The translations under genes were made by a program, and so were the position numbers. Positions 16,101 through 48,800 of a stretch of 64,000 nucleotides of DNA are shown piece by piece (the first letter of the stretch is position 1; each line of letters begins with the position of its first letter). Origin of the DNA: Pelagomonas calceolata (taxonomy: Eukaryota); assembly GCA_918797485.1 (NCBI GenBank), contig CAKKNE010000004.1, forward strand, positions 4,836,001-4,900,000. The letters are read 5' to 3'. Under the pieces are notes generated by a model that did not search any database, was not told the origin of the DNA, and was given only the letters and a program-made list of their open reading frames with translations.

Positions 16101-18091
16101 GGCACCCTTGCTGACCGCATCCAAGCCTCGCAGGACACAGCGCCAGGCGTACAACCGCTCGCGCTCCATTGTTGTTGTGGGTACATCAGCTACTAAATGA
16201 GGTACGAGCTTGCTTTCCTCTTCAGACAACATAACGGGATCGGGGTATTTTAACGAAGGCATCGGCGCGTCCTTCTTCTCCATGGTACTGTTGTCCGGGG
16301 CCAGGTCCGGATCTAGCTGTGCTTTCGCGTCGGCGGCGACGGCGGCCGCGACGGCGTCGGCGGCGGGATCCGCCGGCTCCACAGGAGGAGCCGGTGTCGG
16401 CGGGTTCTCGCGAAACGCCTTCTCCGCCGCAGCCACGGCGTCCTTGCACCGCTGCACGACGTCCTCGGTCCCGCCCAACCGCTCTTCTAGTGTTTTTGGC
16501 GGGTCCCCTTCCCGCAAATGTTTATATTTACCCCTCCGCAAAAACTTGTCCATGTCGTCCTGCTCCTCTTCTTCGGTCTTGAAGTAGCCCTCCTCCTCGG
16601 CCGTGGGTAACGCATCTACTTCTTTTCGGTCCTCTTCTGTTAACGAAGCATACGTCGCGTCGACCGGGAGCGGTCTTCTCACTTTGTACCGCGGGTCGCC
16701 GAAGGAACTTCTACCGTAGGGCACCAGGGCGTCCTTCAGGGTGCCCAGCGTCTTCGCTAAGTGCGAACCGCGCTGCTTCTGCCGCGTGCCGTCCGACGCG
16801 CCGTCTCCTATCAATGCATATCTTAATCTCCGCAACACGGCAGCCTCGTCCTGGCGCTGGGACGCGGAGTTCGTGAGGCCTAAGTGGGCGAAGCGCCGTT
16901 TCTTCGCCGCGAGCAGGTCTTCTTGGGCGCATAATTGCGCGTGCTTCGCCTCATCTCGGAGCTCAGGCAACGACATGTGGCCCGCCGGTCTTACCGGATT
17001 GCGGTAGCGCCCTTGGTTTCTTGTTTGCGGTTGCCCTAGGATGCGTCGGTCTAGATTTCTATCTCCTCTCGAGGCTCCCGCAGTTGTGGCATAGGGTCGG
17101 GAATAATCACTAGATTGCGAGGCCTGGGCGGTTCTTCTGGAGCCGCGGCCGCCGCGGCCGCCTCTTGTCGAACGTGTCCCGCGCCCACCCCGCCGATAGC
17201 CGCCGGGGTTCCGCTGCTCCGCGTCGGCTGCCGCTCGTTGTAGAAATAACCGTTGCGCCGGTTCGATCGCGGCGTCCGGCAGGAAGTACGTGAACTCTCG
17301 CAACAAATCGGCGTGGTCCTTGAAGAGCTCCGCGACGCGTCGCAACACCTCCTGGATGCCCTTCTGCTCCCGCTGATACGTATGTAAAACTTCCAAGAAC
17401 GCCTTGTAGGTCTCCGGCTGGTGCTCGAAGCGCTTCTTGATGGCCGTGACGTAGGCGATGGCGTTGTCGAACTCCACCGGTTGTCGCGGCGGGTCCTCGA
17501 CGGGCGCTCTAGCCGGTCGTCGCGCGGGCGCGCGCGGCCGCGGCGCCGGCGGCGCCGGGGCCGCCTGCTGCCCTCGAGGTACGGCGTTGACCTGGCCCCG
17601 GAGCTGCTCTCGCAGGTGTTCCGGGACTTCGATCTTGTAGCCCTCCGGTAAAAAGGTGTTGAAGCCGTAAATCAGCTTGCCGTAGCCTTCAAAAAGAGTA
17701 CTCACGCGCCGGATCACGCCGGGCGTGTCGATCTGCTGGCTCTTGAAGGACTTCATGATCTCGAGGAATTCGTTGTAGATCTCGGGCTCGTCCCCAAATT
17801 CGGCCTTGACCTGGTCCAGGTAGAGCAGCGCGTCCTCGACCTGCGTGTGCGTGGGGTTTCGGCCAAAAACGTCGGCGTCGGCCCGCGCGGACGCGTATAT
17901 CTCTGGCGCCGGCCAGCGAGGGGCGCGGCGCGGGCCGTGCGGGGCGGTCTCCGGGGCAACATTCCGGCTTTGGGCGACGGTCGAGCGGGAGGGACGGGGC
18001 ACGGGCGGGAGTGGCCGCCGGGGGTCCGGGGGGTCACGGGACGCGGCCGGCGCACCTTGAGCTCCCTCATGCCTTGCGGACGGGCGGCCAT
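13149..18091 (-). CDS. SIN3: SIN3-like paired amphipathic helix corepressor scaffold (~1,575 aa; one intron, 17841-18055)
   Basis: A GT-AG intron joins [20 protein letters not shown]1 ([12 protein letters not shown]...[10 protein letters not shown]), PAH2 ([15 protein letters not shown]...EFTYFLP), HDAC-interaction region (TPSYRRLP...VLNDDWVSV...[15 protein letters not shown]) and C-terminal [14 protein letters not shown]. Start is ATG 18091 or 18070. Confidence 0.9.
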
Positions 18092-19031
18092 GGTCTGAAC
18101 TGGTGGCTCTTGCGCTTTTCTTGCGGGGTCGTCCGCGCTGCTTGAAAACACCCCTGGTGTTGGCGGGGGCTTGGCTAGGGGCCTCTGAGCGACCCAAGAT
18201 GGCTCTCGGGCACCGTCGGGGAGCTGGGCGCGCAAATCCAGGCGAACTGAAAGCGCCTCTGGTCTCGCCCCGTCTTGCGCCCGTCAGCAATTGCTAATTG
18301 CGGCGAGCGGCTTGCTGGCAGTCACAGGCCTTTTTGTGGCCCTGCCTAGCTTTACGGGCGCGTCGGTACCGCGTTGCAACCCGCAAATGGCTCGAATTTG
18401 CCGAGTCCGCAACTCGCGCCGCAACACGCACCGAATTTGACGCGGAGTTGCCAGTACCTTCAAATCGGTAAACTGAGCGAGAGCTGAAGCCGCCAGTTGC
18501 TGCGGCTTTGTGTTGCCGTAATCGCACGCTAAATTGGGCCGCCGAGTCTGCGGCTTGCTATGGGCCGTCCGGTCCGGGTCGGTAGATTTCCACCGCACGC
18601 TTCTGATGTCATGCGTGGCCGTGCGCGTTTAGAGATGGGAAGAAACTGAAAAAAATAGTAGCGGGTCACAATATGATAGGTAATATATAGTGTAACTAGG
18701 ACAACGCGAAAAAACCTAAGCGACGAAGGAAAAACGACGCCAGTGACCATCCGCCAGCCAATACGCGTCGATCCCGCGCCGAAATTCTGGGCGAAAAAAA
18801 TTCCGAGTGGGCACCGCTCCAAGTGCCGCTCCGGACGCCATGGACGCCGACGCCCCAGTCTAACGCCCCAGGACTCATCTAGAATTTTCTGCTTTAGTAG
18901 GGGATGTGATTGCCGGGTCCGGACGTAGTGTGGAACGCGCCGCCGTGTTTCGGGCGACGCCAGCAGTGTGCGAGCCGCGACACTGTCGTACGGCAGGGGG
19001 AGGGGGGGGATTTGCGTCACGAGATCGGCGA

Positions 19032-20219
19032 TTACGTTCGGCGAGGAATGTCGACGGTCCAGGTCTTGTCGAAGACGACGTCGCAGCTCGCGTCGTCGTC
19101 GGCGAGCGAATCTGTAGAAGCGGCGACGAGCTGGTCCGACGTGAGGCGCTGCCGGTCCGCGAGCCGCGCGACGACGCGCTGCTCTAGTCGATATTGAGTC
19201 TCCGTAACATGTAAAGTGGAATGGACGCGCACGGAGGCGCCCGTCGCGGCGTCCGTCGCGGCGTCGACACTCGTCGCGTGCCAGGCCGCCCTTGAAGCTA
19301 CATGGACGTGACTCCGGCCATCCTTGGCGAGCGAGATCTTCTCCCGCGTCGCCTCGCCGACCTCCAAGAGCGGCGCGGAGCCCGACGACGCCAATTTGCG
19401 GCAGCCGAAGTCGTCCTGGAGGACGACGGCCGCCGCGTCTTTTGCGGACGCCTCGGCGGCGCGGCGCGCGCGGACGCGCGTGGGGGCTCGGATGGTCCTC
19501 GCCTCGAGGCCGGCGCCGTCGGCCGGCGTTCTGAACGCAGGCGGCGGCGGCGCGTCTCGTACTTGATTTTTAGATGGGAGTTGTACCGAACCGCCCAAAA
19601 TCTCGATGGCGGCAAGGGGGTCGGCCTCTGAAGTTTTGGGCGGCGGCGGGAACGAGGGCCAGTCCCAGCGCTGTAGGACAATGCGCCAGCGGTCGCCCGG
19701 GGCCAGCTTCGCGGCGCAAAACCCCAGCTCGACCTTGATCTGAGCAGAGGTGACGTCGGCGACGCCGCTGCCCACTCTGATTGATTCGCCCGTGGCCGCG
19801 ACTCGTTGTAAACGCGCGTGGACGCGGCCCGCGTTCGCGCCGCGCAGGCGCAACGTTACCGAAGGCACGCCGAAGACAATAGGCGAAGCATCAATTGGCG
19901 CATCGAAGGCCGCACTCCAAGCCGCGGCGTCGGCGTCTCTATGATCACCCGCGAGGTCGTGGACCCGTCCCAAATGGGCGAACGCGCCGGCTCTTGATAA
20001 AGGATCGGCTCGACAAGCATCCGCGAAGGCTTGAGAACCGCCCTTGCCGACGACCGCGATTGTATGAGCGCCGTTCGGTGCTACAGGTCCAGAAAGGAGC
20101 CGTCCGTCGGCCGCTAATGAGAACGTTGCTGTATCAACGTTTGACAAAGCTCGAGTAAGGCCCTGCTGATCCGACAGCCACGCGCCGGCGTTGCGAGATG
20201 ATAATAGAGACACCAAGCA

Positions 20220-20250
<31 letters not shown>

Positions 20251-23200
20251 TTCGAGGAACTACAGTGCGCCCTAACCCAGCCTAAAGCCAACCGCGGAAA
20301 GTCCGCCCGCGGCCCGCAGTCCATCGCCGAGGCGTGCGGGAAGCCGTGCGACCAGGGCCCTATCATCGTCGCGTTATTGATGCCTCTTCTATCAAGTGAA
20401 GCACACAGCTCGGGGATGGAATCCACATAACCGCCGCCCCGCAGGCACCCGATGGAAAACACCGGTACCTTCACGTCGTCGGCCTTGGGCGAGCCGACGC
20501 GCCAGTAGTCCTTATTGGATACATCCGCCCTTAACCAAGCGGCCTCGGCGGGCTCGCCCAAGGCTTGTAACCGGGACAACCACTGGCGGCGCCAATCCTT
20601 ACCATGCAGTAAAGGCGGTCTAGCTTGCACGATCGAAAACCACGCGCCCCAGGAGTGCTGCTCCGCGAGCACGCAGCCCTGCTTCTTGTGCATATCATCT
20701 AATTCGCGTCGGTGCGTCGCGGAGCACGCGATGACCGCTTTTAGTGCGGAAGGCGGTTGCGGTAGAGCGGCAACTTGCAAGGCCACGAAGCCGGCCCAGG
20801 AGGCGCCCACTAAAACGGCGTCGCCCGAGCACCAATTTTGCGAAGCCAGTTCTTGTACGACAAAGGCAGCGTCGTTCACTTGATCATCTTCATATTCGTT
20901 GGCAGGCGGCGCTCCCTGAGAGTCGCCGATACCTCGAGGGTCCGCGCGCGCGACGGCGACGCCTCGAGCCGCGAGATAGGGCCACGTCGCCGCGTCCTGC
21001 TCCGCCGTCGCATCTGAAAATCGATAAGGCTCGAAGCAGACCACGACCGGGAACTTTCCAGCAGCGTCGGGGCGCCAGAGTCTTACTCTAAGATCGCCGA
21101 CACTCACATCGGTACACGTCCACTCGAAGAGCGGCGGGTCGTCCTCGTCCACGTCCGAATAGTCCTGGCTCTCGGCCCGCTCTCTCCGCTTCTGGCGCTT
21201 ATTGCTGGCTACCTTCGCCAAAGAAGCCAGATCTGGCGCGGCGAACAGGTCGGCCAGCTCCAATTGCACGCCGAGGAACTTGACGGAGCGTCGCGCCGCC
21301 TGCACGGCAACTAACGAATTGCCCCCAACATTCGTGAACGAGTCCAACCGCCCGACGGGCCGAGCCGGCGGTAGATCCAGCACGGCCCGCCACAGCGCCT
21401 CGACGGCTCTTTCATCATCTGTGGAAGGTGCGCCGCCCGTGGCCTCGGCTCCAAAAGTTCTTGAGGCTCGTCCGCCGCCCGCCGGCGGTGCTGGTAGAGC
21501 CTTCCGATCGACTTTGCCATTGCCCGTCATTGGTAAACGGGGAACGGCGGCGAAGCGCGCCGGCACCATGTAGCGCGGTAATGCGGCTTCTAATGAACTT
21601 CTTAGTGATGCCTCGAGTTCGGGTTCCAAGTGGGCCGCTGCAGGTGGTGCTTTCAGAGCCTCTTCACCGGCGAACTCCTCGGCGTCGCAGGCCGCTTTCC
21701 GTTCCTTGGACCGCAGGTGGTTCGTGTACGTCTCCCACGGCCTCGGGGACGCGCCGGGCGTTCTCAGTCGTTCCGCGCAGAGCTGGGCGACCGCCGGATA
21801 CCTGAGTTTCGCTTTGCCCGGTTTCTCGCCCTTCTGGCGTTTGACGAAGAGGACATCCAACGAAGCACCCGCGGCGCACGCGCCCGGCGCGGCCACGCCC
21901 GCACTTCTACAAGCGGCCACGTCGTAGCCTAGGGATTCGCCGAGCTCGTAGAGATCGTCCGGTTCCAGACCACCTTGCATTCGGGCTCGCTTCGACGCCT
22001 CCTTCGCAACGGCCTCGGCCTTCTCGAGGGACCCGCGTTGGGACGTCTCCACGCTATTCAATAATTCCCGTTCGAAGGCGAGGCGCGCGTCCGGCGCCGC
22101 CGCGATGTATAACGTTTCCGGTCCCTCTTCTAGTCTACTTCTTAACTGATCAATAGAGTGCTTCGAGGCGTCGTAGAGCTCGCAAGGCGCAACGGCCTTC
22201 ACACAGGTGGAAGGAGCACCGGGCCCCGCCTTGTACAACCACACGTCGCCCCGGAACCCGGCGAACTCCGACCGCACGCGCCCTCGTTTGATTTCGACGT
22301 CGACGCGCACGCAGTCGGGAAATTCTCCCCTTGATAGTGCGTCGACGAAGAGCCGCGGATCTAATAAAAGCTCCTTCTCGCGCGCGTAAGATCTACGAGC
22401 CAGCACATTCAGCTCCGTCACCGAGATATCTAGTGAGGGACAAGCGCAGTCGCCGCCACAAGACGTCAATTTTTGGTCCGGAGCTGCGGCTCGTCTAGCC
22501 CTTGCTAGTGCAAGAGCACAGTGGAACGGCGCCGCGACGCCACGATCCCGAAAATCCCCGAGAAAGCACACCCCACCGGGCGCGCACGCTTTCAACATGG
22601 ACTCGCAGACTCTCAGAGTATAGCGAGCGGAGGGAAAGTACATGGCCACTCCGTTGCAAACGATCGCGTCACATCTTTCGGAAGCAAATTTATGCGCGTC
22701 ATGAGCGCCGCACTTCGCTAGTTTCAATTTGTGGCCCGCATCTTTATATACCTTGAGATTTGGCGCCGTCGCGGTCGTCACGCCTCGGACGTACTCCAGA
22801 GCCGTGCCACTGAGATCCGTACCCACGTACCTCTGGCACGTGTCCTTCACGAGGCACCGCAGCAGAATCATGCCGTTGCCGCAACCTAGTTCCAGGACCC
22901 GCGTCGGTGAGAGCTGTTCCACTCTCTGAACCGTGAAGTCCGCCCACTCGTCGACCGTGTGGGGCACGTGGACGTCGCCGGGGTTGAAGGAGTCCGCATA
23001 TCCACTATAATTGAGAGCCGGGTCCTCCGTGACCGCATCAGCGGCGGCATAAGCGGAGTCGTACACCGCCCCCCACTCCTCCACAACTCCATCATCTTGA
23101 TCGTCCTCCTCCTCCTCGTCCACTTCATCGCCCCCTTCCAACTCCTCGGCGCCGTAGTCGCCGCCCCAGGCCGGTCGAGGTACTACATAGCCTACGAGTT

Positions 23201-25442
23201 CCTTCTCGCCGCCCTTGGTCGGTGTCCTCGGTGCTACCGCCGCCGCGTCGACCGACGGTAAGGCGCTTAGCGCCGCTTCCACGTCACCGAGCTCAATGCG
23301 GAAGCCCCTAATCTTCACCTGGGCGTCGAGTCTCCCTAAACACTCGATTCTGCCACAAGGCAGTCTCACGCATAAGTCGCCCGTCCGGTACAAGCGATCT
23401 CTGAGTTCAGCAGGGTGGCCTTCAGGAGCCCACTCCTCGAATCCAAAGCCCGTCGTATTCTCTACAAATCTCCCTTGCGAGAGGTCCTCCCTTCGTAAAT
23501 AGCCCGGGGAGAGACCAGCTCCACCCAAAGCCAGCTCGCCGGGCACGCCCACCGGCAGGATCCTTCCAGCACTATCGACGACGTGCGCCGTGTTGTTGCG
23601 GCACGGGCGGCCCACGCACCCGACGGGGTACGGAGAAGGAGCTTCCACTTCATGCCGCGTCGACCAGATCGTGCACTCCGTGGGGCCGTAGACGTTTAAT
23701 AGGCGTCTAACGCGGGGCCGCAATTGTCCAGCTAGATCCGCCGGTAAAGCCTCGCCCCCACACAAGGCGACGACGCGATCCGGGGCGCCCATCCACCCAT
23801 TTGCCACCAGTAAACGCCACGACGCCGGCGTCGCTTGGAGCACATCTACATCGAAGCGCCTCACTAAACCCGCTAATGCTGACGGATCTCTAGCTTCCTC
23901 GGCCGAAGCGACGACGACTCGCGCTCCACACGTCAAAGGTAAAAACAGCTCCAGCCCGCTGATGTCGAAACACACGGTCGTAACGGCTAGCAACGTGCCC
24001 TGGGACCCGGGCAACTCCTCATTTAACAAGCCGCCCGACGTCGCCCTCCGAAACGCCCGTTCCGCGCCGCCTTCGTCGAGCGTGTCCGACCCCTTCAACA
24101 GGCAAGAGGCTCTTGATCTTAACGCGACGGCGGGCCTCGCAGCGTCGCCCGGCCGTAATTCCGGCAGGTCGTCCAGAAAACTTTTTAGTAAGTTCGTAAG
24201 GGAGCCGTGTGTGATGGGCACGCCCTTAGGGCGGCCCGTAGAGCCGGACGTGAAGAGGCAGTAGGCCAGGTCGTCCCGGCCCGGTTGGATCTGGGCCAGG
24301 TCCTTGCCGAACCAGCGCTCCGTCGGAGATAAAGCATCAGCCAATACGGGAGCCTCGCCCTCGGATTGTATGGTTTCGAGGTGCAAGGCCGGCATGGAGG
24401 GGATGCGGGTGGACGTCAGAGCGGCGTTTCCAATAACACACTTCGCCCGCGAGTCCTCGAGCATGGCCTCCAATCTTGACGTCGGGTAGACGGCGTCTAA
24501 CGGGACATAGGCGGCGCCCGCGGCGTTCACTCCTAGTAACGCCGCGACTAAATCCGGTCCTCGCTCGCAGAGCACGCCGCAAAAATCGCCCTTGCCCACG
24601 TTATAATCACTGCGTAATCTTCGAGCGATGCTCCCCGCCGCCCTTAGTAGTCGACCGTAGGACCAGCTTTGATCCGCGTCGGCGACGGCCTCGGCGCGAC
24701 CGTCGCCGGCCGCGGCCGCGACGACGGCGGGCAGGCCCCGCATGTCTACCGGTGCAGGCGCCGGCTGCCAGTCCACCAGTAAGCGCTCCCGTTCCCGCGC
24801 CGGCAGGTATTCCAGAGAAGCAGATGAGCCGCCCTTCACCAAGGCGTCGAGCGCCCCGGCGAGATGGGCCGCCAATCTATCCGCCGCATCTAGGTCGCCC
24901 TTGGGGCACGCCGCGCGCGCGACCCGGACGATACCAGGTCCGAACGCGACAAGCCACTGCGCGTCTTTCGCGCGCTGCGACGCCCACTGCTTGAAACTGC
25001 GGTCGTCTATGGAACCGACCCTCAACAAAATGGCCGGCCGCGGCCTGTGCACCTCGTCGCGCACGGCGCTTGATAACGCGCTCCGGGCCGATGCGCGCCA
25101 GCTCGCGGCCGTCTCCGGGATGTCTTCGGACAGCGCGAGGGCCTCGTCATCGATCACGATCAAAACGTCGGCCCTTCCAACATAGCGCCACGTTAGATAA
25201 CTACAGGCCGCGACGGCGTCTTCCACGGAGGGCGCGCGCGCGTCGTCCCTCCGGTAGAAGCCGCAGGTCGGATTGGAATCGTTGACGCCGAGGCCGCCGG
25301 GCAGCACGTGGAGTTCGCCGTTCTTGCGGGCGCGCTCATATAAAGCGGAGCCGTCTTTCGGGCTGCCAATCATGGGCGGTGGGGGCGGCGAGCTGGGGCT
25401 CGGGGGCGCCGGCTTCGGCTTGTGGTGGCCGTTGAGGACCAT
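19032..25442 (-). CDS. Single-module NRPS-like protein: vestigial C - adenylation (Gly-type code) with embedded N-methyltransferase - T (PCP) - CocE/NonD (peptidase S15-like) hydrolase
   Basis: A-domain cores YCLFTSGSTGRPKG, FDIS, NVYGPTE, GELALGG..GY, YRTGD, GRLDAQVKIRGFRIELG, LPRYMVP and NGKVDRK. SAM motif VLELGCGNG lies between A8 and A9. Carrier motif FTNVGGNSL. Hydrolase motifs DPRGIGDSQG, GASWAG and GPWSHG. First ATG at 25442. Confidence 0.9.
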
Positions 25443-25669
25443 GGCTTGCTCTCTGTTGCGCAATTGCTTGCGCTAGAGGCTGCCCTTCACTGTAATCGAG
25501 AGCTGCAATAAAGCAGGAGAAGCGGAGAGGGAAGCTCGCACGCTCCCCCGGGTCTTAATTCCCGCAGAGGAGGACGCTAGGTCTCCGGCGAGGTTGCAAT
25601 CCAGCCCGTGATTCCTGTGGAGACGGGTCCGCAAGTTTTTTTTCGGTGCGGGTTTTCATCGCTTCGCGC

Positions 25670-25820
25670 CCCAGCCCTGGGCAGCGGCTCCGCCCACTAG
25701 TCCTAGCATCATCACAGAAACCCTTCCCCCCACTCGTCCTAGTACCAGAGCCACCGACGACGGACGCGCGGTGTTTCCCCCCCAGCCGTGGGCAGGGGCT
25801 CCGCCCACTAATCCTAGCAC
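25670..25820. repeat. Two ~40-bp imperfect direct repeats plus a partial third copy, between the PDI-like stop and the NRPS start
   Basis: cccagccctgggcagcggctccgcccactagtcctagca (~25670) versus cccagccgtgggcaggggctccgcccactaatcctagca (~25781); partial ccccactcgtcctagta (~25728). Confidence 0.7.
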
Positions 25821-25884
25821 CGTAACAACACCACGGGCGAGCGAGCAATAGATATATAAACTTACTTCGCGGAGATTTGCGCTC

Positions 25885-36826: not shown

Positions 36827-39800
36827 TTACCAGCCGCCGGGCGAGCCCATGGTCGTGCGCGGCCTCGACGGACTCGGCGAGCGCGTCGGCGAGCCACCCA
36901 TCGTCGTCCGCGGGCGACCGTCCGGAGAGACATCGCGCGAGAGCTCGGCAGAGCGCCTAGCGAGTTCGATGGCGCGCGTCGACGCCGAGTACTGATCAAT
37001 ACTCCCCACAGGTAACGGGTCGTGCAGCGCGAGGCCGATGCCCCCGACCAGGCGCACGGGCGAGCCCGTGCGGTTGATGGCCAAATCAGGTAAGGGCGCG
37101 AGGCCCGACTGGCCGAACGAACCACGCATGGCCTGCGTCGCCGTGCCGGGCAGGGGCTTGGGCTTGGCCAGCGATCGTGGATCCGGGTTGTAGTAGCGGC
37201 TCTGCGCGAGCGGCGTGCGCGGCCCGGCCGGCGGCGGCAGCGGGCTCTGCATCGTGCGGCCGCGCGGCGGCGGCGGCGCGCGGCCGCGCGTCGGCGACTC
37301 GATGGGCGGCAGGCGGTCGCCGCCCTCGCCGCCGAAGCCCTCTCCTTCCACAGCGATGCGGCCGCCGGCGGGCGGGCAGATCTTGAGGCCGCCGCCGCGC
37401 GGCCGGAGCCAGGGGGCGTCGCCCTTGCGCATGCGCGCGTAGACCGGCGCCGCGAGCGCGCGCGGCGCGGAATCGCCGTCGGACTTCGTGCAGTCCGCGA
37501 AGAGGTTGCGGAGGAGCGTGACGAGGAGCGGGCCCTCGCGCGCCGGCACGGCGACCGTCGCGGCTCCATGCGGGGCTTTGCTCCCGAGGAACGCTCTGCG
37601 AGCAAAGCGCGCCGTCGTGCACACGCGATACGTGCGCGTCTTCAGCATGCCCTTGCCCTCGAAGAAGAGGCCCTCCTTGCCGATGCGGCGGCCGGGGCGC
37701 TCGTCGGGCCGGAAGATGACGCGCACGTCGTCCGAGACGTGCGGGAAGTCGTCGCTCAGGTTCGGGTAGCGCGCGAGCGCTAATTCCAAAGCGACGCGGA
37801 TCTGGAGCCCCGTCGCCTCGACGACGACGAGGCCCGGGCCGTCGCACGCCTGTTGGGCGATGCCGTCGAGCGAATCATCGACCTTGACACCATCATCATC
37901 ATCACCCTCGAAGACGTCGACGGCGCCCTCCTCGACGCGGGGCCCGTCCTTGTCGCTGTCGGCGATGGGCGCCAGCGCTAGCAAGTCGGCGGGCGTGAGC
38001 GGCTTGCGCGGCGGGAGCTCGCCGACGGACCGCAAAGCTCTGCCATCCAAAATAGCTAAGTCGCTCCGCGTCGCCGCGGCCGCGACGTCCGCCGCGAGGC
38101 CGCCGGCCGAGGCGCCCGCGCGCCGCGTCGCGAGGTGGCGGCCACCGCGTAACGATTCGGCCGAGCAGTCCAAGGTACCCTCGCAGACGGCTGCCGTCGT
38201 CGCGAGGCCGCGCGCGACGCCTCTATGCGCGACGACCGCGAGGCGGCCGACGGCGTCGACGGCGCGCGCGCCCGGCGCGATGTTCAGGGCCTCCGCCGCT
38301 AAGTGGGGCGGCGGGCCGCTGTGGGGCTCCTCCGGCAGGATGACGGACATCTTGAGGAGGCAGGCGAGTTGCGGCGGCGCGCGAACGACCCAGCAGTAGG
38401 CCTCGTCCGTCTCGTGGCGGTGCGCGCCCGACGGCGGCGCCTCGCCGCGCGGCCCGCTCACGACGATGACGTCGGCCATGCCGTTCGCCGCTTGGGCAAG
38501 CTCGCCGCCCGGCGACGACTTGCCAGTGCCCCCGCCGACGGCCGCCAAGACAATGACGACCTCGGCGCCGTTGCGTCTGAGTTCGCCACCGAGTCTACGG
38601 ACGCAGGCGTCCTCGTCCTCGACGCGCACGGGCGGCGGCGAGCCCTTCTGGCTGTCGCTACCCGTGTTGCCGGACACCACCTCTAGAGTCGCGCAGTCCC
38701 TTAGCTTCTCGGCAGCCGCGACGGCGATGATGCCTACTTTGCGGCCCTGCCATGTCACTAAGCGAGAAGCTTGTGTCCCAGCGAGGGGCTTCGACGTTCG
38801 GGCATCCGAGACATTGGAGAGCAACAAAGGGAAGTTGCAGGCGTTGGCGATGCGTTCTAAATTCGCACACCCGTAGTCCAAATCACTAGGTCCGACGCCG
38901 CCACAGTAGACGCCCATGGCGTTCGCCGTGGGGACGACGTGGTCGCCGCGCGTGACGGTGCCCTCGAAGGACGCGCCGAAGGAATTGCCCGTGAACAGCA
39001 CCAACGGCTCGTTCTCCTTGCCGCATTCTTCTCTTTCATCTTCGATGGCCGCACACAAGCGCGCCCCGGCACCGGACACCTTCTTCTTCTGCGACTTGTT
39101 GCCCTTGGCACCTCCATTGAGGTCGGCCATGTCGCCGAAAATCAGCAAAGGCAGCTCCACCCCACCACCCGTCCAGGGCGCCGGGCGGCGCCGCTTCTTG
39201 CCGCCCGTGGCGGATAGGCCCGACGCGATGGCCTCCTCCGCGCGCGCCTTGGCCCGTTCATCGAGTTTCGCTGCTAAAGCTTTCTCGATGATCGCCTCCC
39301 ATTCGAAGGCGTCGATCAGGCCATCTCCGGAAGTATCGAGGGTCTTGATCGACTTCTCGATCTTCTCGGGAATCAACAGATCCTGGAGGTTCTGGTTGCC
39401 GCAGTCCTTGACGAAGGCGATGACCTCTTGGTTCGACGTGACGCCCGTCTTGATCTCGTCGTGGTCCAACAGCCCGGACGCGTCCGTGTCGATGAGATCG
39501 AAGACCTTGCGCGCGGCGGCCATGAACTCGGCCGTGAAGGCGCCGTCTTCCGCTGCTGCCGCGCGCGCCCGCCGCTCCCGGTCCTCGGCGAGCTGTGCGA
39601 GGCGCACCTTGAGGCCGCGCTGGATCGCCTCCTCCCTGCGTGGTGCAACGACCGGTTAGCAGTCGCAGCGATGGCGTCCGGGTTGCATCTCTTTCGGACG
39701 CTGACCACGCACCACTCGTCGACGTCGACCTCGCCGTCCTGCGACGTGTCCAGCGCGTTGAGCGCCCGGTCCAATCGCTTCGGCTCCAACAAAAACTGCA

Positions 39801-42800
39801 AATTTTCCTCGCCGCAGTCCTTGAGGAAGTCGATGACCTCCTTGTCGCTCTTGACGCTCTTCTTGATCTCCTCCTTCGTCAGCGTGCCGGAGTTGTCGAC
39901 GTCGATCATCGCGAAGACGCGCCGCGCGGCGCCCAAAAACTCGGCCGAGAAGGCCGCGTTCTCGGCGGCGGCGGCCTTGGCGCGCCGCTCCTGCTCGTCC
40001 TGGAGCTGCGAGACGCGCTTCGCGAGGCCGCGCTTGATCGCTTCTTCCCCTGTGTGCGTGAATGGTGAGTGAAGCTACATGTGTCGTGACGGCGGCGTCG
40101 CGGCGACAGCGCCACCGCTCTCGCGAGGCGCGCGGACTCTCTGACGGCCGCATCGACGCCATCGACGCGACCGCGAGACGCGTATAGACTCTCCCGCGCT
40201 CACGACGACGGCGTAAAAAACAAGACGCCGCTCCCGTACATTCGTCCATGTCCAGCTCGCCGTCCTTGCTCGTGTCCAGGGCATCCAGGCTCGCTTCTAA
40301 ACGAGCGGGCACCAGCAGGAACTGCAGGTTCGGCTCGCCGCAGTTCTGCAGGAAGTCCTTGACGGACTTGTCGGAAGACACGCTGTGCACGATCTCCGTC
40401 TTCGTGAGCGTGCCCGAGTTGTCCTTGTCGATCATCAGGAAGCACTCGCGCGCCGCGTTGAGGAACTCGGCCGTGAAGGCCTCGATCTCCGCGCGGTTGG
40501 CCGACTGCGCCTGCTCGCGCTCGACGCGGCGCTGCTCGAGCTTGGCTTTCAAGGCCGTCTCGATGGCCGCCTCCCACTCCATGGCGTCGATCTCGCCCGA
40601 TCTATCGGTATCCAGCGCTTCTAGGGCTGCTTCTAAACGAGCCGGCACGAGCAAGTACTGGAGGTTCGGGTTGCCGCAGTCATTGAGGAAGGTGATGACC
40701 TCCTGCGAACGGCGCGAAGCGTGAAGCGGTCGTGCGATTCCTCACCACCACACACCAAACACACGAAAAGAGCAGTTCCGCAGATCACGGATTGAAGGTT
40801 GTAGGACGCCGCGTTCGCGCCTTGTCGTTGGCCACCGCATCCACAATCTCCTTCTTCGTGAGCGTGCCGGACTGGTCCTTGTCGATCATGTCGAAGACGG
40901 CGCGCGCCATCGTCAGGAACTCGGCGCTGAACTCCTCGTCGGCCGCGGCGGCCGCGCGCATGCGCCGCTCCTGCTCGGCCTGGAGCTGCTCGACGCGCTT
41001 GGCCAGGCCGCGGTAGATCGCCTCCTCCCCTGTGCGTGAATCAACCCGTGAGTCCGGTGCCCCCTTCTTATTTCTCGGCGACGACGCGACCGTGCTGGAA
41101 CCACCGCCACGCCGTCGAGCAGGCGTCGCGTCGATCGGATGACAAGCGAAGCTACACGTAAAAACAAGACGCCGCTCCCGTACATTCGTCGACGTCCACC
41201 TCGCCGGAATTGTCCGTGTCGAGCTGCTCGAGGGCCTTTTCTAATCTCGCCGGCTGCAGCAGGAACTGCAGGTTCTCCTCGCCGCAGTTCCGCAGGAAGT
41301 CGATGACCGGGCGGTCTTCGCGCACGGCTCTCACAATTTCCGTCTTCGACAGCGACCCCGAGTCGTCCTTGTCGATGAGCGCGAAGGCCTCGCGCGCGGC
41401 GTTCAGGAAATTCGCCGTGAATTCCTCGATCTCCTTGCGGAAGGCCTCGGCGTTCGCCTCGCGCATCGCGCGCCGCTGCTCGAGCTTCTTCTGGAGGGCC
41501 TTGGCGATGGCGTCCTCCCATTCGTTCGCATCAATTTCATCATCACCATCCTTGTCCAAGACGGACAGGGCGTGGTTCAGGCGTGACGGCACCAACAAAT
41601 ACTGCAGGTTTTCGTTGCCACAGTTCGCGAGGAACATCTTGACCTCCTTATTTTCCTTGACGGCCGTGATAATTTCCTGCTTTGTGAGCGTGCCGGAGTT
41701 GTCGACGTCGATCATCTCGAAGACCTTCCTAGCCGCAGATAGGAACTCGGCCGAGAACTCCTCGTCGGCCGCGGCCGCCGCCTTGGCGCGCCGCTCCTGC
41801 TCGGCCTTCAGGTCGGCCGTGCGCTTCTCTAAGCCTCTATAGATCGCCGCCTCCCACTCGTCGGCGTCGATCTCGCCGTCCTGCGACGTGTCCAGCACCT
41901 TCAATGCCTTCTCGAGGCGCTTCGGCTGCAGCAGGAACTGCAGGTTCGGCTCGCCGCAGCTGCCCAAAAACGAGATCACTTTTTTGTCGTGCGTCACGGC
42001 GTCCACAATTTCGGTTTTCGTCAGGCTGCCGTTGCCGTCCGCGTCGATGAGCGCGAAGACCTCCCTGGCGGCGTTCAGGAACTGCTCCTTGAAGGCTTCG
42101 AGCTCGCGCCGGTCCGCGGCGGCCTGGGCCTCGCGGGCCGCGCGGCGCTGCTCGATCTTCGCCTTGAGGGCCTGCTCGATCGCGGCTTCCCATTCGGGCG
42201 CCGTGATCTCGCCGTCCGAGTCGGTGTCGAGGCAGTTGAGCGCATGTTCTAACCGGGACGGCACGAGCAGCGACTGTAAATTCTCGTTGCCGCAGTTGCT
42301 GAGGAATTTGATCACTTCATCGTTATTCTTCACCGCATCGACGATCTCAGCCTTGGAGAGCGTCCCGCCGCCGTCCGCGTCGATCATGTCGAAGACCTGC
42401 GTTAGTTACGTTAAGTTAGTTACGTTAAGCCGAAACACCAAGAAGCAAACAAACGCGCGCGCACGGAAGGGGGTTTGATTGATTGGACGCAGGAAACGGA
42501 CCTTGCGGGCCATGTTCAGGAACTCGGCGCTGAACTCCTCGTCCGCGGCCGCCGCGGCGCGCTCGCGCCGCTCGCGCTCGTCGGCCAGCTCGTCCAAGCG
42601 CTTCGCCAGGCCGCGCTTGATGGCCGCCATCCACTCGTCCATGTCCATCTCGCCGTCCTTGGACGTGTCCAGCATGTCCAGGGCCTTGCTGAGGCGGGCC
42701 GGCTGCGTGAGGGCCACGAGGTTCGGCTCGCCGCACGTCTTGAGGAAGTCGATGACCTCCTTGTCCGACTTCACCGCAACCACAATCTCCTCCTTGGTCA

Positions 42801-45800
42801 GCGTGCCCGAGTCGTCCTTGTCGATGAGCTCGAAGCAGCGCTGCGCGGCCTCCATGAAGTGCGCGGTGAACTCCGCGATCTCGCGCTGCGCCGCCGCGGC
42901 GGCCGCCTCGCGCGCCTTCTTCTTCGCCTCGAGCTTGTTCTTGAGGGCGCTCTCGATGGCGGCCTCCCTGCGTAGGTATGAACCGGTGGGGCGCGTCGGC
43001 GGAAACGTGTGACGACGCGGCGTCCGCACCACTCCGGCAGGTCGACCTCGCCCGACCGATCCGTATCAAGCTCCGCGAGCGCAGCTTCTAAACGAGCCGG
43101 CACGAGCAAGTACTGGAGGTTCGGGTTGCCGCAGTTGACGAGGAAGTCGATAACTTCCTTGTTCGCCTTGACGGCGGTGGTGATCTCATCCTTTGTGAGC
43201 GTGCCCGAGTCGTCCTCGTCGATCATCATGAAGACCTTGCGCGCCGCGAACAAGAATTCGGCCGAAAAGGCCTCGTCCTCCGCGGCCGCGGCGCGCTCGC
43301 GGCGCTCGCGCTCGTCGGCGAGCTGCTCGAGGCGCTTCGACAGGCCCCGGCGGATCGCCTCCTCCCCTGCGCGCGAATCAACCAGTGAGATGTGTCCGTC
43401 GAGCAGGCGTCGCGTTCGGATGGCAAGTAGGACGCCGGGCAGTACACTCGTCGATGTCCACTTCTCCCGAGCCGTCCGTGTCGAGCTCGCGCAGCGCGTG
43501 GTCGAGCCGCTTCGGCTGCAGCAGGAACATCAGCGTCTCGTCGCCGCACGTCTTGAGGAAGTCCTTGACGACCTTGTCCGACTTGACCGCCGTAGTGATC
43601 TCGTCGATGGCGAGCGAACCCGAGTCGTCCTTGTCGATGAGCTCAAACACCTCGCGCGCCTTGTTCAAAAATTCTTTGGTGAAGGCCTCGTTCTCCGCGC
43701 GCGCCTTCGCCGCGGCCTCGGCGCGGTCCTTGGCCCGCTGCTCGAGCTTGTTCGCGAGGGCTTGCGCGATGGCCGCCTCCCTGCGTGGAACATCGACCGG
43801 TGAGCACGCCATCACCGCAACACGCCATCGCCGCGTAAAGTTTGAGACTCCGAAACGCACCACTCGGGCAGGTCCACCTCGCCGGACTTGTCCGTGTCGA
43901 GCTCGGCGAGCGTCTTCTCGAGCTTCGAGGGCACCATGAGGTCCGACAGGTTCTGGTTGCCGCAGGAGATGAGGAACTTCTGGACCTCGTCCTCGTTCTT
44001 GACGGCGTGCAAAATCTCCTCCTTCGTCAGCGTGCCGGAGTCGTCCTTGTCCATCATGATGAACACGTCCCGGGCGGCGTTCAGGAAGCCCGCGCTGAAC
44101 TCCTCGTCGGCGGCGGCCGCCGCGCGCTCGCGCCGCTCGCGCTCGTCGGCGAGCTGCTCGAGGCGCTTCTTGAGGCCGCGGTGGATCGCCTCCTCCCCTG
44201 TGCGCGAATCAACCGGTGAACGTCGATCGCATGACAAGTAGGACGCCGGGCCGCACATTCCTCGACGTCGACCTCGCCCGAGTTGTCCGTGTCGAGCTGC
44301 TGGAGCGCGTGGTCGAGGCGCTTCGGCTTGAGCAAAAACTGCAGGTTCTCCTCGCCGCAGTTCTGGAGGAAGTCCTTGACTTCCTCGTCGCTCTTGACAG
44401 CTTCCACAATCTCGGCCTTCGCTAAAGCACCGGAATCGTCCTTGTCGATCATCTCGAAGACCTTGCGCGCGGCGTTCAAAAACTCGGCCGTGAACGCGGC
44501 GATCTCGGCCGCCGCCTCCTTGGCCCGGCGCTCGCGGTCGGCCGCGCGCTGCGCCAGCTTCGCCTTGAGCGCCGTCTCGATGGCCGTCTCCCACTCCGGG
44601 AGCTCGATCTCGCCCGAGCCGTCAGAATCGATGGCCTTAAGGGACGCCTCGAGCTTCGACGGCATGAGCAGGTACTGGAGGTTGCGGTCGCCGCAGTCGT
44701 TGAGGAACTTCTTCACTTCCGCATTCGTCTTCACGGCGCCCAGGATCTCCTGGTGGCTCAGCGAGCCGCTGTCGTCCTTGTCCATGAGCATGAAGACCTC
44801 CCGGGCCGCGTTGAGGAACGCGGCGGAGAACGCCTCGTCCTCCGCCCGCGCCGCCCGCTCGCGGCGCTCGCGCTCCTCGCGCAGCTGCTCGAGCCGCGCC
44901 GCGAGGCCCCGGTGGATCGCCTCGTCCCTGCGCGCAGCGAGCGGTGAGCTTCGCGCGAGGCCCGTCGCGTCGATGGCGTCTCGGTGGCCCCATATCGCGA
45001 CGATCGGCTCTGAGCTTCGGAGGCGGACTGTCGCATCGATGGCGTCTCAAGTTGAAAGGTATGACCGAGTTATGTCGGTGACGGAAAGGACGCCGCCAGA
45101 CGCACCACTCCTCCTCGTCAACTTCCCCAGACTTGTCCGTGTCGAGGGCCTCGAGCGCCTTCTTCAGGCGCTTGGGCCGTAATAAAAATTGGAGGTTCGG
45201 CTCGCCGCAGTTCTCGAGGAAGTCGATGACCTCCTGGTCCTCCTTCACGGCGCGCGTGATCTCGTCGATCGCGAGGCTGCCCGAGCCGTCCTTGTCGATC
45301 ATCTCGAAGACCTTCTGGGCGGCCGCCATGAACTCGGCCGTGAAGGCCTCCATCTCCTTGCGCCACGCGCGCGCGCGCTCCTCGCGGTCCGCCGCGCGCT
45401 GCCGGAGCTTCTCCTTCAGTGCTTCGGCGATGGCCCTTTCCCATTCGGGAGCTGAAATCTCCCCGTCCAAATCCGCATCGAGCTCGTCGAGCGTCGCCTC
45501 CAACCGCGCCGGCACCAGCAGGTCCTGCAGGTACTTGTTGCCGCAGTTCACGAGGAAGGCGATCACTTCCTTGTTGCTCTTGACAGCCTTCATGATCTCG
45601 CCCCGATCCAACGACCCACTGCTATCAACGTCCATCATGTCGAAGATCTGGCGGGCCATGTTCAGGAAGGCCTCGGAGAAGGCCGCGTCCTCGGCGGCGG
45701 CGGCCTGCTCGCGCCGCGCGCGCGCCTCCTGGAGCTGCTCGACGCGCTTCTTTAATCCTCGCTGGATCGCCACTTCCCACTCATCTTCATCGATCTCGCC

Positions 45801-48800
45801 GTCCTTGCTCGTATCCAACTCCTTCATGGCCTTGTCGATGCGCTTCGGCTGTAACAAGAACTGTAAATTCCTCTCCCCACAAGTCTGGAGGAACGTGACC
45901 ACTTCCTTGTCATTTTGCACGGAGTCCACGACCTCCTGCTTGACGAGCGTCCCCGACTTGTCCTTGTCCATGAGCTTGAAGGCTTTTCTCGCAGCGTTCA
46001 GGAACTCGGCCGTGAACTCCTCGAGCTCCTTTCTAGCCGCCTCGGCGCGCGCGTCGCGCTCGGCTTGCCGCGCGGCCAGCTTCGCCTTCAGCGCCGCCTC
46101 GATGGCCGCCTGCCACTCGCTCCGGTCGATCTCGCCGTCGTCGTTCGTGTCCATGACCTTGAGGGCGTTCTGCAGACGACTCGGTACCAATAAATATTGT
46201 AAATTTTTATTCCCGCAGCCCTTGAGGAAGTCCTGGACCTTGCGGTTATGCTTCACGGCGTTCGTCAACTCGTCGTGCGTCAACGTGTCCGACTTGTCCT
46301 CGTCGATCATGTCGAAGATCTCTTCCGCGAGCTTGAGGAACTCGGCCGTGAACTGGCCGTCCGCCGCCGCGGCCGCGCGCTCGCGCCGTTCCCGATCCTC
46401 GGCCATGGCCTGGAGCCGCTTCTCGAGGCCCGCCAAGACGGCGGCTTCCCACTCTTCCAGGTCGACCTCGCCGCTCCCGTCCGTGTCGATCTCGATCAAA
46501 GCTTTTTCGAGCTTCTTGGGTTTGAGTAGCGCCGCTAAAAATTCGTTCCCGCAATTAATGAGGAACTTGACGACCTCCTCGTCCTCCTCGACGCCTCTTA
46601 TAATTTCATCTCGCGACAGGGTCCCGCCGTCGTCGACGTCGAGCATCGCGAACACCTGCCGCGCCAAGACCAAGACCTCGGCCGCGAGCTTGTCGCGCGC
46701 CTTCCGCGCCTCGGCGCGCTTCCGCGCGCGCTCCTCGGCGATCTGGGCGAGGCGCACCTGCAGGGCCTTCTCGATGGCCTCCTCCCTGCGTGTTATGAAC
46801 AGTGAGCGCGCGTCGAAAGACGAAACGGGGGACGCCGCGTACCATACCACTCCTCGATCTCGATGACCCCGCTCCCGTCCGTGTCCAGGGCCTTCATGGC
46901 CTTGTCCAACCGACTGGGAATCAATAACTCCTGCAGGAACTCGTTGCCGCAGTCCTTCAAAAAGTTCTTGACCATCGGGTTATGGGCGACGCCGCCGACG
47001 AACTCATCATGATCCAAGGACATGCTCTCGTCCGTGTCTAAGAGTCGAAACACCTCCATGGCCGCCGCCAGGAACTCCTTCGTGAAGGCCTCGTCGGCCA
47101 AGCGGTCGGCCTCGCGCTGCGCCGCCCGTTCCGCTTCGAGCTCGGCGAGCTTCTTCTCTAAAGCAGCCTGGATGGCGATCTCCCACTCAGGCTTGTCGAT
47201 CTCGCCCGAACCGTCGGCGTCGATCTCCGTCAAAGCTGCGCGTAATCGTCTCGGTACCAACATGTCCTGCAGGAACTTATTCCCACAATTAACCATGAAC
47301 CGGATGACCTCCTGGTTCTCGGTCGTCGCGTCGACCAACTCCTGGGTCGCAAGACTATTGGAATTATCGACGTCGATCAGCTCGAAGACCTGGCGCGCGG
47401 CCGCCATGAACTCGGCGATGAACCTCTCGTCTTCAGCACGAGACAGGGCCGCGCGGCGCTTCTGGTCCGCACTCAGGCGGCCGAGCTGCACCCGTAACGC
47501 CGCTTCCACGGCCTCCTCCCACTCCTGCGTCGAGATCTCGCCGTCCGAATCCGTATCTAAATCCGCGAGGGCCTTCTCGAGGCGCTTCGGATGTAACAAT
47601 TGTTTAAAAATAAGGTTGCCCGAGTTCTGGAGGAAGTCCACAATTTCATTATCGTTCTCCACCGCATCGACCATCTCCTCCTTCGTGATCGTGCCCGAGT
47701 AGTCCTTGTCGATCATCTCAAAAATCTTCCGCGCCATGGCCAAAAACTTCTGCGTGAGGGCCTCCTCTTCCGCCCGTTCCGCGGCTTCGCGCTTCGCGCG
47801 TTCCGCTCGTAGCTTCTTGAGCTTCTCGTCGAGGGCCTTCTCGACGATGGCGTCCCACTCCTCGAGGGAAATCTCGCCGTCGGAATTCTTGTCGATCTCG
47901 TGCAGCGACTTCTTGATCTCCTTGGGGTCGAGCAGATGGCCGAGCAACGGATTGCCGCAAGTAGCCAGGAAGGTCTTGACCTCCTCCTCATATCTCAGAG
48001 ATCGGACGATCTCCTCTTCGGTCAACGAGTTACTACCGTCCGTGTCGATCAAAAAGAACACTTTGCGAGCGAGCTTCTTGAACTCCTCGCGGAAGGCCGC
48101 ATCTTCCGCCTCGCCCGCGGCCTGCGACCGCGCCCGCTGGTCCGCGAAGCGCTTCAACCGGATCTCCAGCGCCAGGTCGATGGCTAACATCCACTCGTGC
48201 TTGCTAATCTCGCCGTCCTTGTCCCGATCTAATTTGGCAAAGGAGGCGGGAAAGCGCTTCTCGTCGAGCATGAGCTGCATGTCCATGTTCCCGCACGTCC
48301 AGAGGAACTTGACGACCTCGGGCTCCTCGGCGATGGACTCCTGGAGCTCCTCGGCGGTCATGCCGCCGTTGTCGTCGAGGTCGATGAGTCGGAAGGCCTT
48401 CGACGCATTATCTAAAAACTTGGCCACGAACTCAATGTCCAGCGGGTTGATCGAGACGACTTCCCCCGACGCGTTCACGCGCGTCGGCCACGGCGTGTCG
48501 TCCTTCCACGCATCCCTCGCGGCCATCAACGCCGCCAACGCGGGATCCATCTCGTCGTCGTCGAAGCCCTTGCCGCCCTTGGCGTCCCAGGGGTTCGGGC
48601 CCTTGCCCTCGCGGTCTCGCTCCGCGGCCCGCTGCGCGAGCTTCTTCTCGAGCGCGCCCTCGACGGCGCCGTCCCATTCTGCCGCTCCAATTTCTCCTTC
48701 ACACTCCAGGTCGGCCTGGGCCAGAGCCTGCCCGATGCAGTCCGGCTCGAGCACCGTCTTCAAATCGGGATTGTCGCAGCCTTCCACGATGTTCACGATC

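What the first reader, a model, noticed from the sequence alone, without database searches (positions are those of the whole stretch)
19032..25442. Stand-alone eukaryotic NRPS-like enzyme: Gly-type A domain + embedded N-methyltransferase + T + CocE/NonD hydrolase
Seen: a complete A domain is interrupted between A8 and A9 by a SAM-dependent methyltransferase (VLELGCGNG; CNGVAMYFPS resembles the NSVxQYFP motif of NRPS N-methyltransferases). A carrier Ser (GGNSL) follows. Where a TE or R domain normally sits there is a full CocE/NonD-type hydrolase (GASWAG, GPWSHG). The specificity residues, read by eye from FDISGL, LQATP, LCGG, NVYG and TIW, give DILQLGVIWK. Established: DILQLGLIWK is the glycine code, and the CocE/NonD family includes amino-acid ester hydrolases/acyltransferases. 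Inference: the enzyme loads Gly, N-methylates it while tethered, then either hydrolyses it (sarcosine, dimethylglycine or glycine betaine, an osmolyte route) or transfers the sarcosyl group to an acceptor without a C domain. I do not know a characterised enzyme with this architecture.
Basis: partly seen in the sequence, partly recalled or inferred. Interest (0 to 1): 0.88.

Follow-up and report, generated by a model that had tools for sequence, protein, structure and literature searches.

The report
Algal assembly-line enzyme for methylated glycine
This alga transcribes one large gene, shared with several common marine microalgae, that fuses a peptide-synthetase module to an esterase-type domain; the enzyme likely loads glycine, methylates it while tethered and releases it, probably as the salt-protectant glycine betaine, which would be an unrecognised route to that compound.

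Summary
Window 19032-25442(-) is one intronless, transcribed ORF of 2136 aa: a remnant half condensation domain, an A domain with the glycine code DILQLGVIWK, an inserted TioS-type methyltransferase, a T domain and a whole CocE/NonD hydrolase. It belongs to a family: 17 full-length representatives, with named members in Aureococcus, Micromonas commoda, Pycnococcus, Tetraselmis, Picocystis and Pyramimonas. No bacterial copy of the fusion was found. In all three domain trees the pelagophyte copies sit beside Pycnococcus, which suggests transfer from green algae. Best reading (0.45): tether glycine, methylate it, hydrolyse it off, most likely as glycine betaine. Close rival (0.33): transfer of the N-methylglycyl group to an acceptor. 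No activity or product has been shown. Ten literature searches of the open library found no description of it.

The parts
19032..25442 (-). NRPS-like gene, 2136 aa, no intron (half-C remnant / A[MT] / T / CocE-NonD)
18880..25490 (-). Transcript extent: polyA loose end at 18880 (3 reads, one run); 5 molecules end at 25490 (one run); one contig spans 18900-25525
24753..25442 (-). N-terminal region aa 1-230: degenerate C-terminal half of a condensation domain, no HHxxxD
   Evidence: (weak here, E 0.02; Pyramimonas homologue E 5e-21)
23163..24752 (-). Adenylation core aa 231-760, code DILQLGVIWK, with an insert of about 55 aa after A3 seen in the pelagophyte copies
21723..23105 (-). Inserted SAM-dependent methyltransferase aa ~780-1240, TioS type-I fold with altered motifs i, iv and vi
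21483..21635 (-). A-subdomain A9-A10 with catalytic Lys1310
21213..21407 (-). Carrier (T) domain aa 1346-1410, Ser1376 at 21315-21317
19035..21152 (-). CocE/NonD hydrolase aa 1431-2136: Tyr1473, Ser1548 (20799-20801), His1699 (20346-20348); Gly1670 where the family has the triad Asp; jelly-roll and an extra C-terminal beta domain

Best explanation
This is a transcribed, single-chain NRPS-like enzyme, conserved in marine algae, that likely activates glycine with ATP, likely N-methylates it while it is tethered on its carrier domain, and likely hydrolyses the product off with its CocE-type domain, most probably as glycine betaine. Shown: domain order, one transcript, conserved residues, purifying selection, family range. 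Inferred: (1) Gly-AMP formation and loading on Ser1376, from the code; (2) methylation on the tether, from type-I interrupted A domains; (3) more than one methyl, from four family-wide changes in the methyltransferase that bacterial-type glycine modules lack; (4) release through a Ser-His dyad, which would be slow on Gly-S-T and faster on the more electrophilic betainyl thioester (speculative). Split of the 0.45: betaine about 0.33, sarcosine or dimethylglycine about 0.12.
For: Gly code in 16 of 16 aligned members; DILQLGMIWK is listed for Gly domains in PMC12283262 (passages). The top 3 of 171 bacterial-type A-MT modules have Gly codes, 449-468 bits against 383 or less for the rest. Methyltransferase: W>Y, S>G, Q>M, L/M>F in 17 of 17 algal proteins; W in 171 of 171, S+Q in 168 of 171 and F in 0 of 171 other modules, the 15 Gly-code modules included; long MT stem (0.79+0.18) against a short A stem (0.056). 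Hydrolase Ser, His, Tyr kept in 16 of 16; dN/dS 0.04-0.07 in A, MT, T and hydrolase core against two syntenic relatives. No HHxxxD upstream of A in 17 of 17 (P0004, P0018 and P0027 have little or no N-terminal region). All named carriers are marine or saline algae (habitats recalled). A P. calceolata gene with the same four Pfam domains (Pca_4p26300) falls 4.5-fold at 50 uM nitrate in one strain (PMC12054182 supplement). M. commoda has no GSMT, GSDMT, BADH, betA or codA in PMC7240134 Table S2. Tether-modify-release has a precedent in Thr1 chlorothreonine (named in PMC10510592; mechanism recalled).
Against: No activity or product was measured. The route spends ATP to AMP where GSMT/SDMT need none. 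RNA depth is of the same order as the flanking Sin3 and PDI genes, and baseMean is 35 in the nitrate table, modest for a bulk osmolyte enzyme. The nitrate response is a single row in that file: one strain, one condition; the gene was matched by domains, not by sequence. Aureococcus also has codA (4), SDMT (2) and GSDMT (1) hits, and Bathycoccus and Ostreococcus lack a full known route as M. commoda does, yet no hit in my searches was named from them. The passages read on R. pomeroyi grown with M. commoda list TMAO, not betaine, as the nitrogen osmolyte sensed (PMC9870897). Bacterial relatives of the hydrolase sit beside an ATP-grasp ligase in 44 of 80 GTDB loci but beside MttB in only 6 of 80, all close to the seed sequence, and CaiD in 0 of 80. 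I found no paper showing N,N,N-trimethylation by a type-I inserted methyltransferase.
Confidence: 0.45

Rival explanations
1. A condensation-free ligase. Glycine is loaded and methylated as above, but the CocE domain would act as an acyltransferase and hand the sarcosyl, dimethylglycyl or betainyl group to an alcohol or amine (lipid, sugar, polyamine, protein or a second N-methylglycine).
For: ATP use is then productive. The fold family includes alpha-amino acid ester hydrolases (1mpx, Z 23.1; their transferase activity is recalled). Loss of the triad acid in 17 of 17 and an algal-specific Trp1601 in 15 of 17 show a changed active site. The bacterial subfamily is paired with an ATP-grasp ligase in 44 of 80 GTDB loci and fused to it in 6 proteins. 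Modest expression suits a specialised product.
Against: No acceptor, partner gene or cluster: neighbours are Sin3, a PDI, a PP2C, a TPR protein, dynein and EF-hand proteins. I recall no N-methylglycyl conjugate from these algae. Loss of the acid does not by itself favour transfer.
Confidence: 0.33
2. Last module of a split assembly line. The half C domain would dock a partner that supplies the missing half and an acyl or peptidyl donor, giving an N-acyl-sarcosine or peptide that the CocE domain releases like a thioesterase.
For: The C-terminal half of a C domain is kept, clearly so in Pyramimonas and Tetraselmis copies, under weak purifying selection (dN/dS 0.18-0.20). A similar hydrolase fold serves as a thioesterase in DcsB (7d78, Z 22.6).
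Against: The remnant is barely detectable in the window, Micromonas and P0012 copies (E 0.02-0.8) and has no HHxxxD. No partner in the window. Such C-domain tails commonly stay as structural supports of A domains (recalled).
Confidence: 0.12
3. The A domain activates something other than glycine (for example betaine itself, as ATRR does), or one of the MT and hydrolase domains is a dead scaffold.
For: Codes predict imperfectly in eukaryotes (recalled). Both the MT and the hydrolase depart from their family motifs.
Against: Asp235 and the whole Gly code are kept. The SAM-binding motifs and the SAM-contacting Asn are kept. Ser, His and Tyr are invariant and dN/dS is 0.04-0.07. There are no reductase domains.
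Confidence: 0.1

Closest known systems
TioS-type (family 1, type-I Mb a8-a9) interrupted A domains; bacterial Gly-code N-methylating modules
   Same: Insert position, fold, motifs ii, iii and v (PMC8341866 table); nearest modules share the Gly code.
   Different: Stand-alone, with no working C domain; motifs i, iv and vi changed in all 17 algal proteins; ends in a CocE domain.
NRPS-like A-T-X enzymes: ATRR (A-T-R-R glycine betaine reductase), CAR, Ebony
   Same: One module, no peptide, a dedicated C-terminal domain decides the product (PMC10510592 section 1.4 passages).
   Different: X is a CocE/NonD hydrolase, which that review never mentions (0 hits for CocE). ATRR consumes betaine; this enzyme would make it.
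Cocaine esterase CocE and alpha-amino acid ester hydrolase (Peptidase S15)
   Same: Three-part fold (Foldseek E 6e-26; Z 24.6, rmsd 2.9 over 474 residues), Ser, His and oxyanion Tyr.
   Different: 16-18% identity, Trp after the nucleophile, no Asp at the D259 position, an extra C-terminal beta domain of about 170 aa, fused behind a T domain.
Uncharacterised bacterial ~665-aa CocE/NonD subfamily (beside ATP-grasp ligases or Opp-type transporters)
   Same: Homologous over the whole domain, 25-30% identity.
   Different: Keeps the Asp (78 of 79); never found fused to an A-T module.
GSMT/SDMT/GSDMT glycine methylation route to betaine
   Same: Same proposed net chemistry, Gly + SAM to N-methylglycines.
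   Different: Those act on free substrate without ATP or a carrier (recalled); this MT matches GNMT only at fold level (E 4e-7 against 6.5e-27 for TioS).

Membership tests
NRPS-like stand-alone module (A-T-X) | Complete A domain (A3, A4 Asp, A10 Lys) | tested here: met
NRPS-like stand-alone module (A-T-X) | Carrier domain with phosphopantetheine Ser | tested here: met
   PF00550 above cut-off; GG[NHQ]SL in 16 of 16
NRPS-like stand-alone module (A-T-X) | No catalytic C domain, all on one chain | tested here: met
   no HHxxxD; one transcript
NRPS-like stand-alone module (A-T-X) | PPTase-dependent loading and turnover | not testable with these tools
   needs assay; no genome held to look for the PPTase
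Gly-specific A domain | DILQ[LM]G[LVM][IV]WK code | tested here: met
Gly-specific A domain | Gly-dependent adenylation | not testable with these tools
   needs assay
Type-I (Mb, a8-a9) interrupting methyltransferase | Position a8-a9, about 390 aa, TioS fold | tested here: met
Type-I (Mb, a8-a9) interrupting methyltransferase | Motifs ii (ExGxGxG), iii (TDxS), v (EL..DP..F) | tested here: met
Type-I (Mb, a8-a9) interrupting methyltransferase | Motifs i (GWxS), iv (NSVxQYFP), vi (NE[LM]xxxRY) | tested here: not met
   W>Y, S>G, Q>M, L/M>F in 17 of 17; a divergent offshoot
CocE/NonD (Peptidase S15) hydrolase | Alpha/beta hydrolase, cap and jelly-roll fold | tested here: met
   model pLDDT 89
CocE/NonD (Peptidase S15) hydrolase | Nucleophile Ser, His and oxyanion Tyr | tested here: met
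CocE/NonD (Peptidase S15) hydrolase | Triad Asp after strand beta7 (CocE D259, role recalled) | tested here: not met
   Gly in 17 of 17 algal, Asp in 78 of 79 bacterial
CocE/NonD (Peptidase S15) hydrolase | A substitute acid reaching the His in three dimensions | not testable with these tools
   model coordinates are not returned
Alpha-amino acid ester hydrolase | Carboxylate cluster binding the alpha-amino group | not tested
   no residue-level alignment with 1mpx was printed
ATRR glycine betaine reductase | Two C-terminal reductase domains | tested here: not met

The most novel reading that the evidence does not exclude
A third, ATP-driven, carrier-tethered route to glycine betaine (or to a betainyl conjugate) in a single enzyme: an NRPS methyltransferase rebuilt for trimethylation and a CocE domain rebuilt as a Ser-His release gate, assembled once in marine green algae and passed sideways to pelagophytes, so that it runs in some of the most abundant ocean picoeukaryotes.
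Probability: 0.35. Interest if true: 0.9.

Novelty: new variant of a known kind. Interest (0 to 1): 0.76.

Why it matters
Glycine betaine is a major marine nitrogen osmolyte, and gene surveys count only the choline oxidation and GSMT/SDMT routes (PMC7240134). If this enzyme makes it, producers such as Micromonas commoda and pelagophytes are being missed or misread, and one marker gene would track them. Whatever the product, this is a new C-terminal domain for NRPS-like enzymes, with two active sites rebuilt the same way across distant algae. One recombinant protein and LC-MS can settle it. It also adds a case of transfer from green algae to pelagophytes.

Tried and rejected
No genome is held for the window, so PPTase, GSMT/SDMT paralogues and copy number were not checked. 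Viral contigs gave 0 loci. PDB search of the hydrolase by single sequence gave nothing under E 0.1; a profile was needed. Longer fusions (3456-5000 aa): none among 3348 candidates, weak evidence. ESM Atlas: best hit 0.89, generic NRPS clusters, uninformative. Earlier findings of the scan: none. A betaine-specific bacterial hydrolase subfamily was suggested by the plasmid hits (CaiD in 2 of 11, MttB in 1, TauD in 1) and dropped after the GTDB count. A split gene or hidden intron was rejected. One in-frame 354-nt skip (20950-21305) appears in 4 reads from 2 starts in 1 of 4 runs with non-canonical ends, and I take it for an artefact. Contamination was rejected: GC 0.64 and GC3 0.71 are within the neighbours' range, and the gene keeps its PDI neighbour in L001 and L002, and Sin3 in L002. 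Homarine synthesis was considered from recalled Gly/sarcosine labelling in shrimp and set aside: PMC8269262 reports homarine in Synechococcus, diatoms and E. huxleyi only. The mixture-model tree of 96 hydrolases timed out, so FastTree was used. Small-share environmental runs were not used as habitat evidence. Two wanted papers are not held. No complex prediction was run.
Full report
1. Observation. The ORF is real: 19032-25442 on the minus strand, 2136 aa. The pocket residues read DILQLGVIWK (GrsA spacing recalled, alignment to LgrA). The insert matches TioS by sequence and by predicted fold. Four polyA runs of one sample cover every bin of the gene on the sense strand, from a polyA end near 18880 to about 25490, with no intron; the Sin3 neighbour's intron is detected in the same data. 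One assembled contig spans 18900-25525 and a second, from another study, bridges the T-hydrolase junction; both runs are only guessed to be RNA. The host is a eukaryote, most likely a Pelagomonas-type pelagophyte. This is inferred from the Aureococcus homologue (59-60% identity) and from a P. calceolata gene with the same domains.

2. A family. A search with the hydrolase region among proteins of 1174-3738 aa gave 4 hits among 7989 scored candidates, all with the same fusion (P0005 has no Pfam MT hit but aligns through the MT). The 50%-cluster search listed the best 150 of 84,364 hits; 6 of them carry the hydrolase. A third search gave 16 hits among 7986: 10 A-MT-T-CocE and 6 ATP-grasp-CocE fusions. 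In total there are 17 full-length or nearly full-length representatives with the window protein; P0001 and P0002 share a 90% cluster, P0004 is cut short and P0018 starts inside the A domain. Named members: Aureococcus anophagefferens, Pycnococcus provasolii, Pseudoscourfieldia marina, Pyramimonas, Tetraselmis striata, Tetraselmis GSL018, Picocystis salinarum and Micromonas commoda XP_002502208. The rest are unnamed. No hit with this fusion carried a bacterial name, and none was found among longer proteins (weak). The gene lies beside the PDI gene in two metagenome contigs and beside Sin3 in the one that reaches that far. It is under purifying selection in every domain, dN/dS 0.04-0.07 in A, MT, T and hydrolase core and 0.13-0.20 in the flanking parts. 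The window holds no metabolic cluster around it.

3. Origin. The algal proteins form one group against the bacterial rows in the hydrolase tree (FastTree 100, 17 against 79), the MT tree (SH-aLRT 100) and the A tree (only 80). The A domains lie among modules with Gly codes, and the three best of 171 A-MT modules from large, unnamed, presumably bacterial NRPSs have Gly codes. The A(MT) part therefore probably came from a sarcosine-type module. The four pelagophyte-type rows group with Pycnococcus in all three trees (100, 99, 97) and in a mixture-model tree of A plus MT (100/99). Holding the 11 green rows together is rejected, p-AU 0.0008. Caveats: 5 of the 11 green labels come from tree position, P0018 and P0027 were left out of that test, branches are long and composition is uneven. 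Shared motifs in the hydrolase (THRR, GYxDS) agree with the tree. I read this as transfer from a green alga to pelagophytes; the direction is inferred from nesting.

4. What has been rebuilt. Methyltransferase: motifs ii, iii and v of type-I domains (PMC8341866, table and passages) are met. At four positions all 17 algal proteins differ from the other modules: Y for W (W in 171 of 171), G and M for S and Q (168 of 171), F for L/M/V/I (F in 0 of 171). The 15 Gly-code modules keep the standard residues, so the change is not about glycine size. Hydrolase: the model is confident (pLDDT 89) and matches cocaine esterase and amino acid ester hydrolases. Ser, His and the oxyanion Tyr are kept in 16 of 16. 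The bacterial GW-x-D motif aligns with CocE GWYD, Asp259 by my count (its catalytic role is recalled). That column is Asp in 78 of 79 bacterial rows and Gly in 17 of 17 algal rows, with a one-residue insertion before it; Trp1601 is new in 15 of 17. Whether another acid takes over could not be checked. N-terminus: a profile built from 120 C domains finds the C-terminal half of a C domain, strong in Pyramimonas (E 5e-21) and weak here (0.02), and no HHxxxD.

5. Bacterial relatives of the hydrolase. On plasmids 227 records match, mostly rhizobial. I read 11 neighbourhoods (one without annotation): 10 of 11 have an Opp-type ABC permease, 2 a carnitinyl-CoA dehydratase, 1 MttB and 1 TauD. Among the best 80 of 597 GTDB loci, ranked by likeness to the MttB-linked seed, 44 have an ATP-grasp gene, 12 an Opp-type permease, 6 MttB, 6 cyanophycin synthetase and none CaiD (many loci are short). 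A betaine link is therefore weak. The recurring partner is a carboxylate-activating ligase, as in the algal fusion.

6. Mechanism. Most likely Gly is adenylated and loaded on Ser1376, methylated on the tether (type-I domains need the loaded T domain, PMC9056781 passages) and released through Ser1548. I favour free glycine betaine for four reasons: no C domain captures the monomethyl amine, the MT is rebuilt relative to monomethylating modules, the named carriers are salt-water algae, and the matching P. calceolata gene falls at low nitrate (log2FC -2.17, padj 7e-5, strain RCC697 only, baseMean 35). Betaine is higher in nitrogen-replete phytoplankton (PMC7240134 passage). Against it: the ATP cost, modest expression, existing betaine-route homologues in Aureococcus and the same gaps in Bathycoccus and Ostreococcus as in M. 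commoda, and no betaine signal in the passages read on an M. commoda co-culture. Acyl transfer to an unknown acceptor is nearly as likely. None of the chemistry is shown.

7. Literature. Ten searches of CC-licensed PMC and bioRxiv: CocE+adenylation+methyltransferase+NRPS 0; homarine+biosynthesis+nonribosomal peptide 0; NRPS/Aureococcus/Pelagomonas/adenylation 6; code strings 1; CocE+betaine+carnitine 1, off topic by its listing; ATP-grasp+CocE 0; four further searches on algal betaine and interrupted A domains, of which I saw the listings. None of the listings or passages describes this enzyme. I read term-matched passages, not whole texts, of PMC10366177, PMC4661987, PMC12283262, PMC9321204, PMC10510592, PMC9056781, PMC8341866, PMC12054182, PMC8269262, PMC7240134, PMC13547399, PMC11306096, PMC8949500 and PMC9870897. 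I saw supplement rows of PMC12054182, PMC7240134 (part 1 of 2 of Table S2) and PMC8269262 (3 files unreadable). The algal survey PMC4661987 counted only NRPSs with a C domain, so it would miss this gene. The antiSMASH table of PMC10366177 (nine Chrysophaeum NRPS genes) was not opened and may list such a gene. Subscription journals were not searched.

8. Verdict. A real, expressed and conserved NRPS-like family with a C-terminal domain I could not find described for such enzymes, two rebuilt active sites, and a testable product. New variant of a known kind, interest 0.76.

Noticed in passing
L021-L093 (for example L033:5637-8959) and P0196, P0198-P0202: A two-gene cassette of ATP-grasp ligase plus CocE/NonD hydrolase in 44 of 80 GTDB loci across many phyla, many from genera I recall as halophilic, fused in 6 proteins; 6 loci also carry cyanophycin synthetase. 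No paper held both terms.
   Followed up: partly
window ~24000-24175 (aa ~424-480): An insert of about 55 aa in the A domain of the pelagophyte copies, highly conserved among P0001-P0003 and partly in Aureococcus, with a basic-basic-x-T/A-S stretch that could be a kinase site. It is transcribed, not an intron.
   Followed up: no
P0018, P0027: Two unnamed family members form their own branch in all three trees; their host lineage is unknown and could be a second transfer.
   Followed up: no
window 17838-18054: A 215-nt GT-AG intron in the Sin3 gene, whose true start lies upstream of the ATG at 17756.
   Followed up: no
window 25793-25828: Reads on the opposite strand with loose ends match a short stretch between the PDI and NRPS genes, probably a dispersed repeat of about 35 nt.
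   Followed up: no
window 36827-51157 and 63056-63967: A run of ORFs rich in EF-hand repeats, one joined to a 5'-nucleotidase C-terminal domain; possibly one very large multi-exon calcium-binding protein.
   Followed up: no
L002:1487-3027: Two extra ORFs on the opposite strand, one with a MYND-like cysteine pattern read by eye, lie between the PDI and NRPS genes in this relative but not in the window.
   Followed up: no
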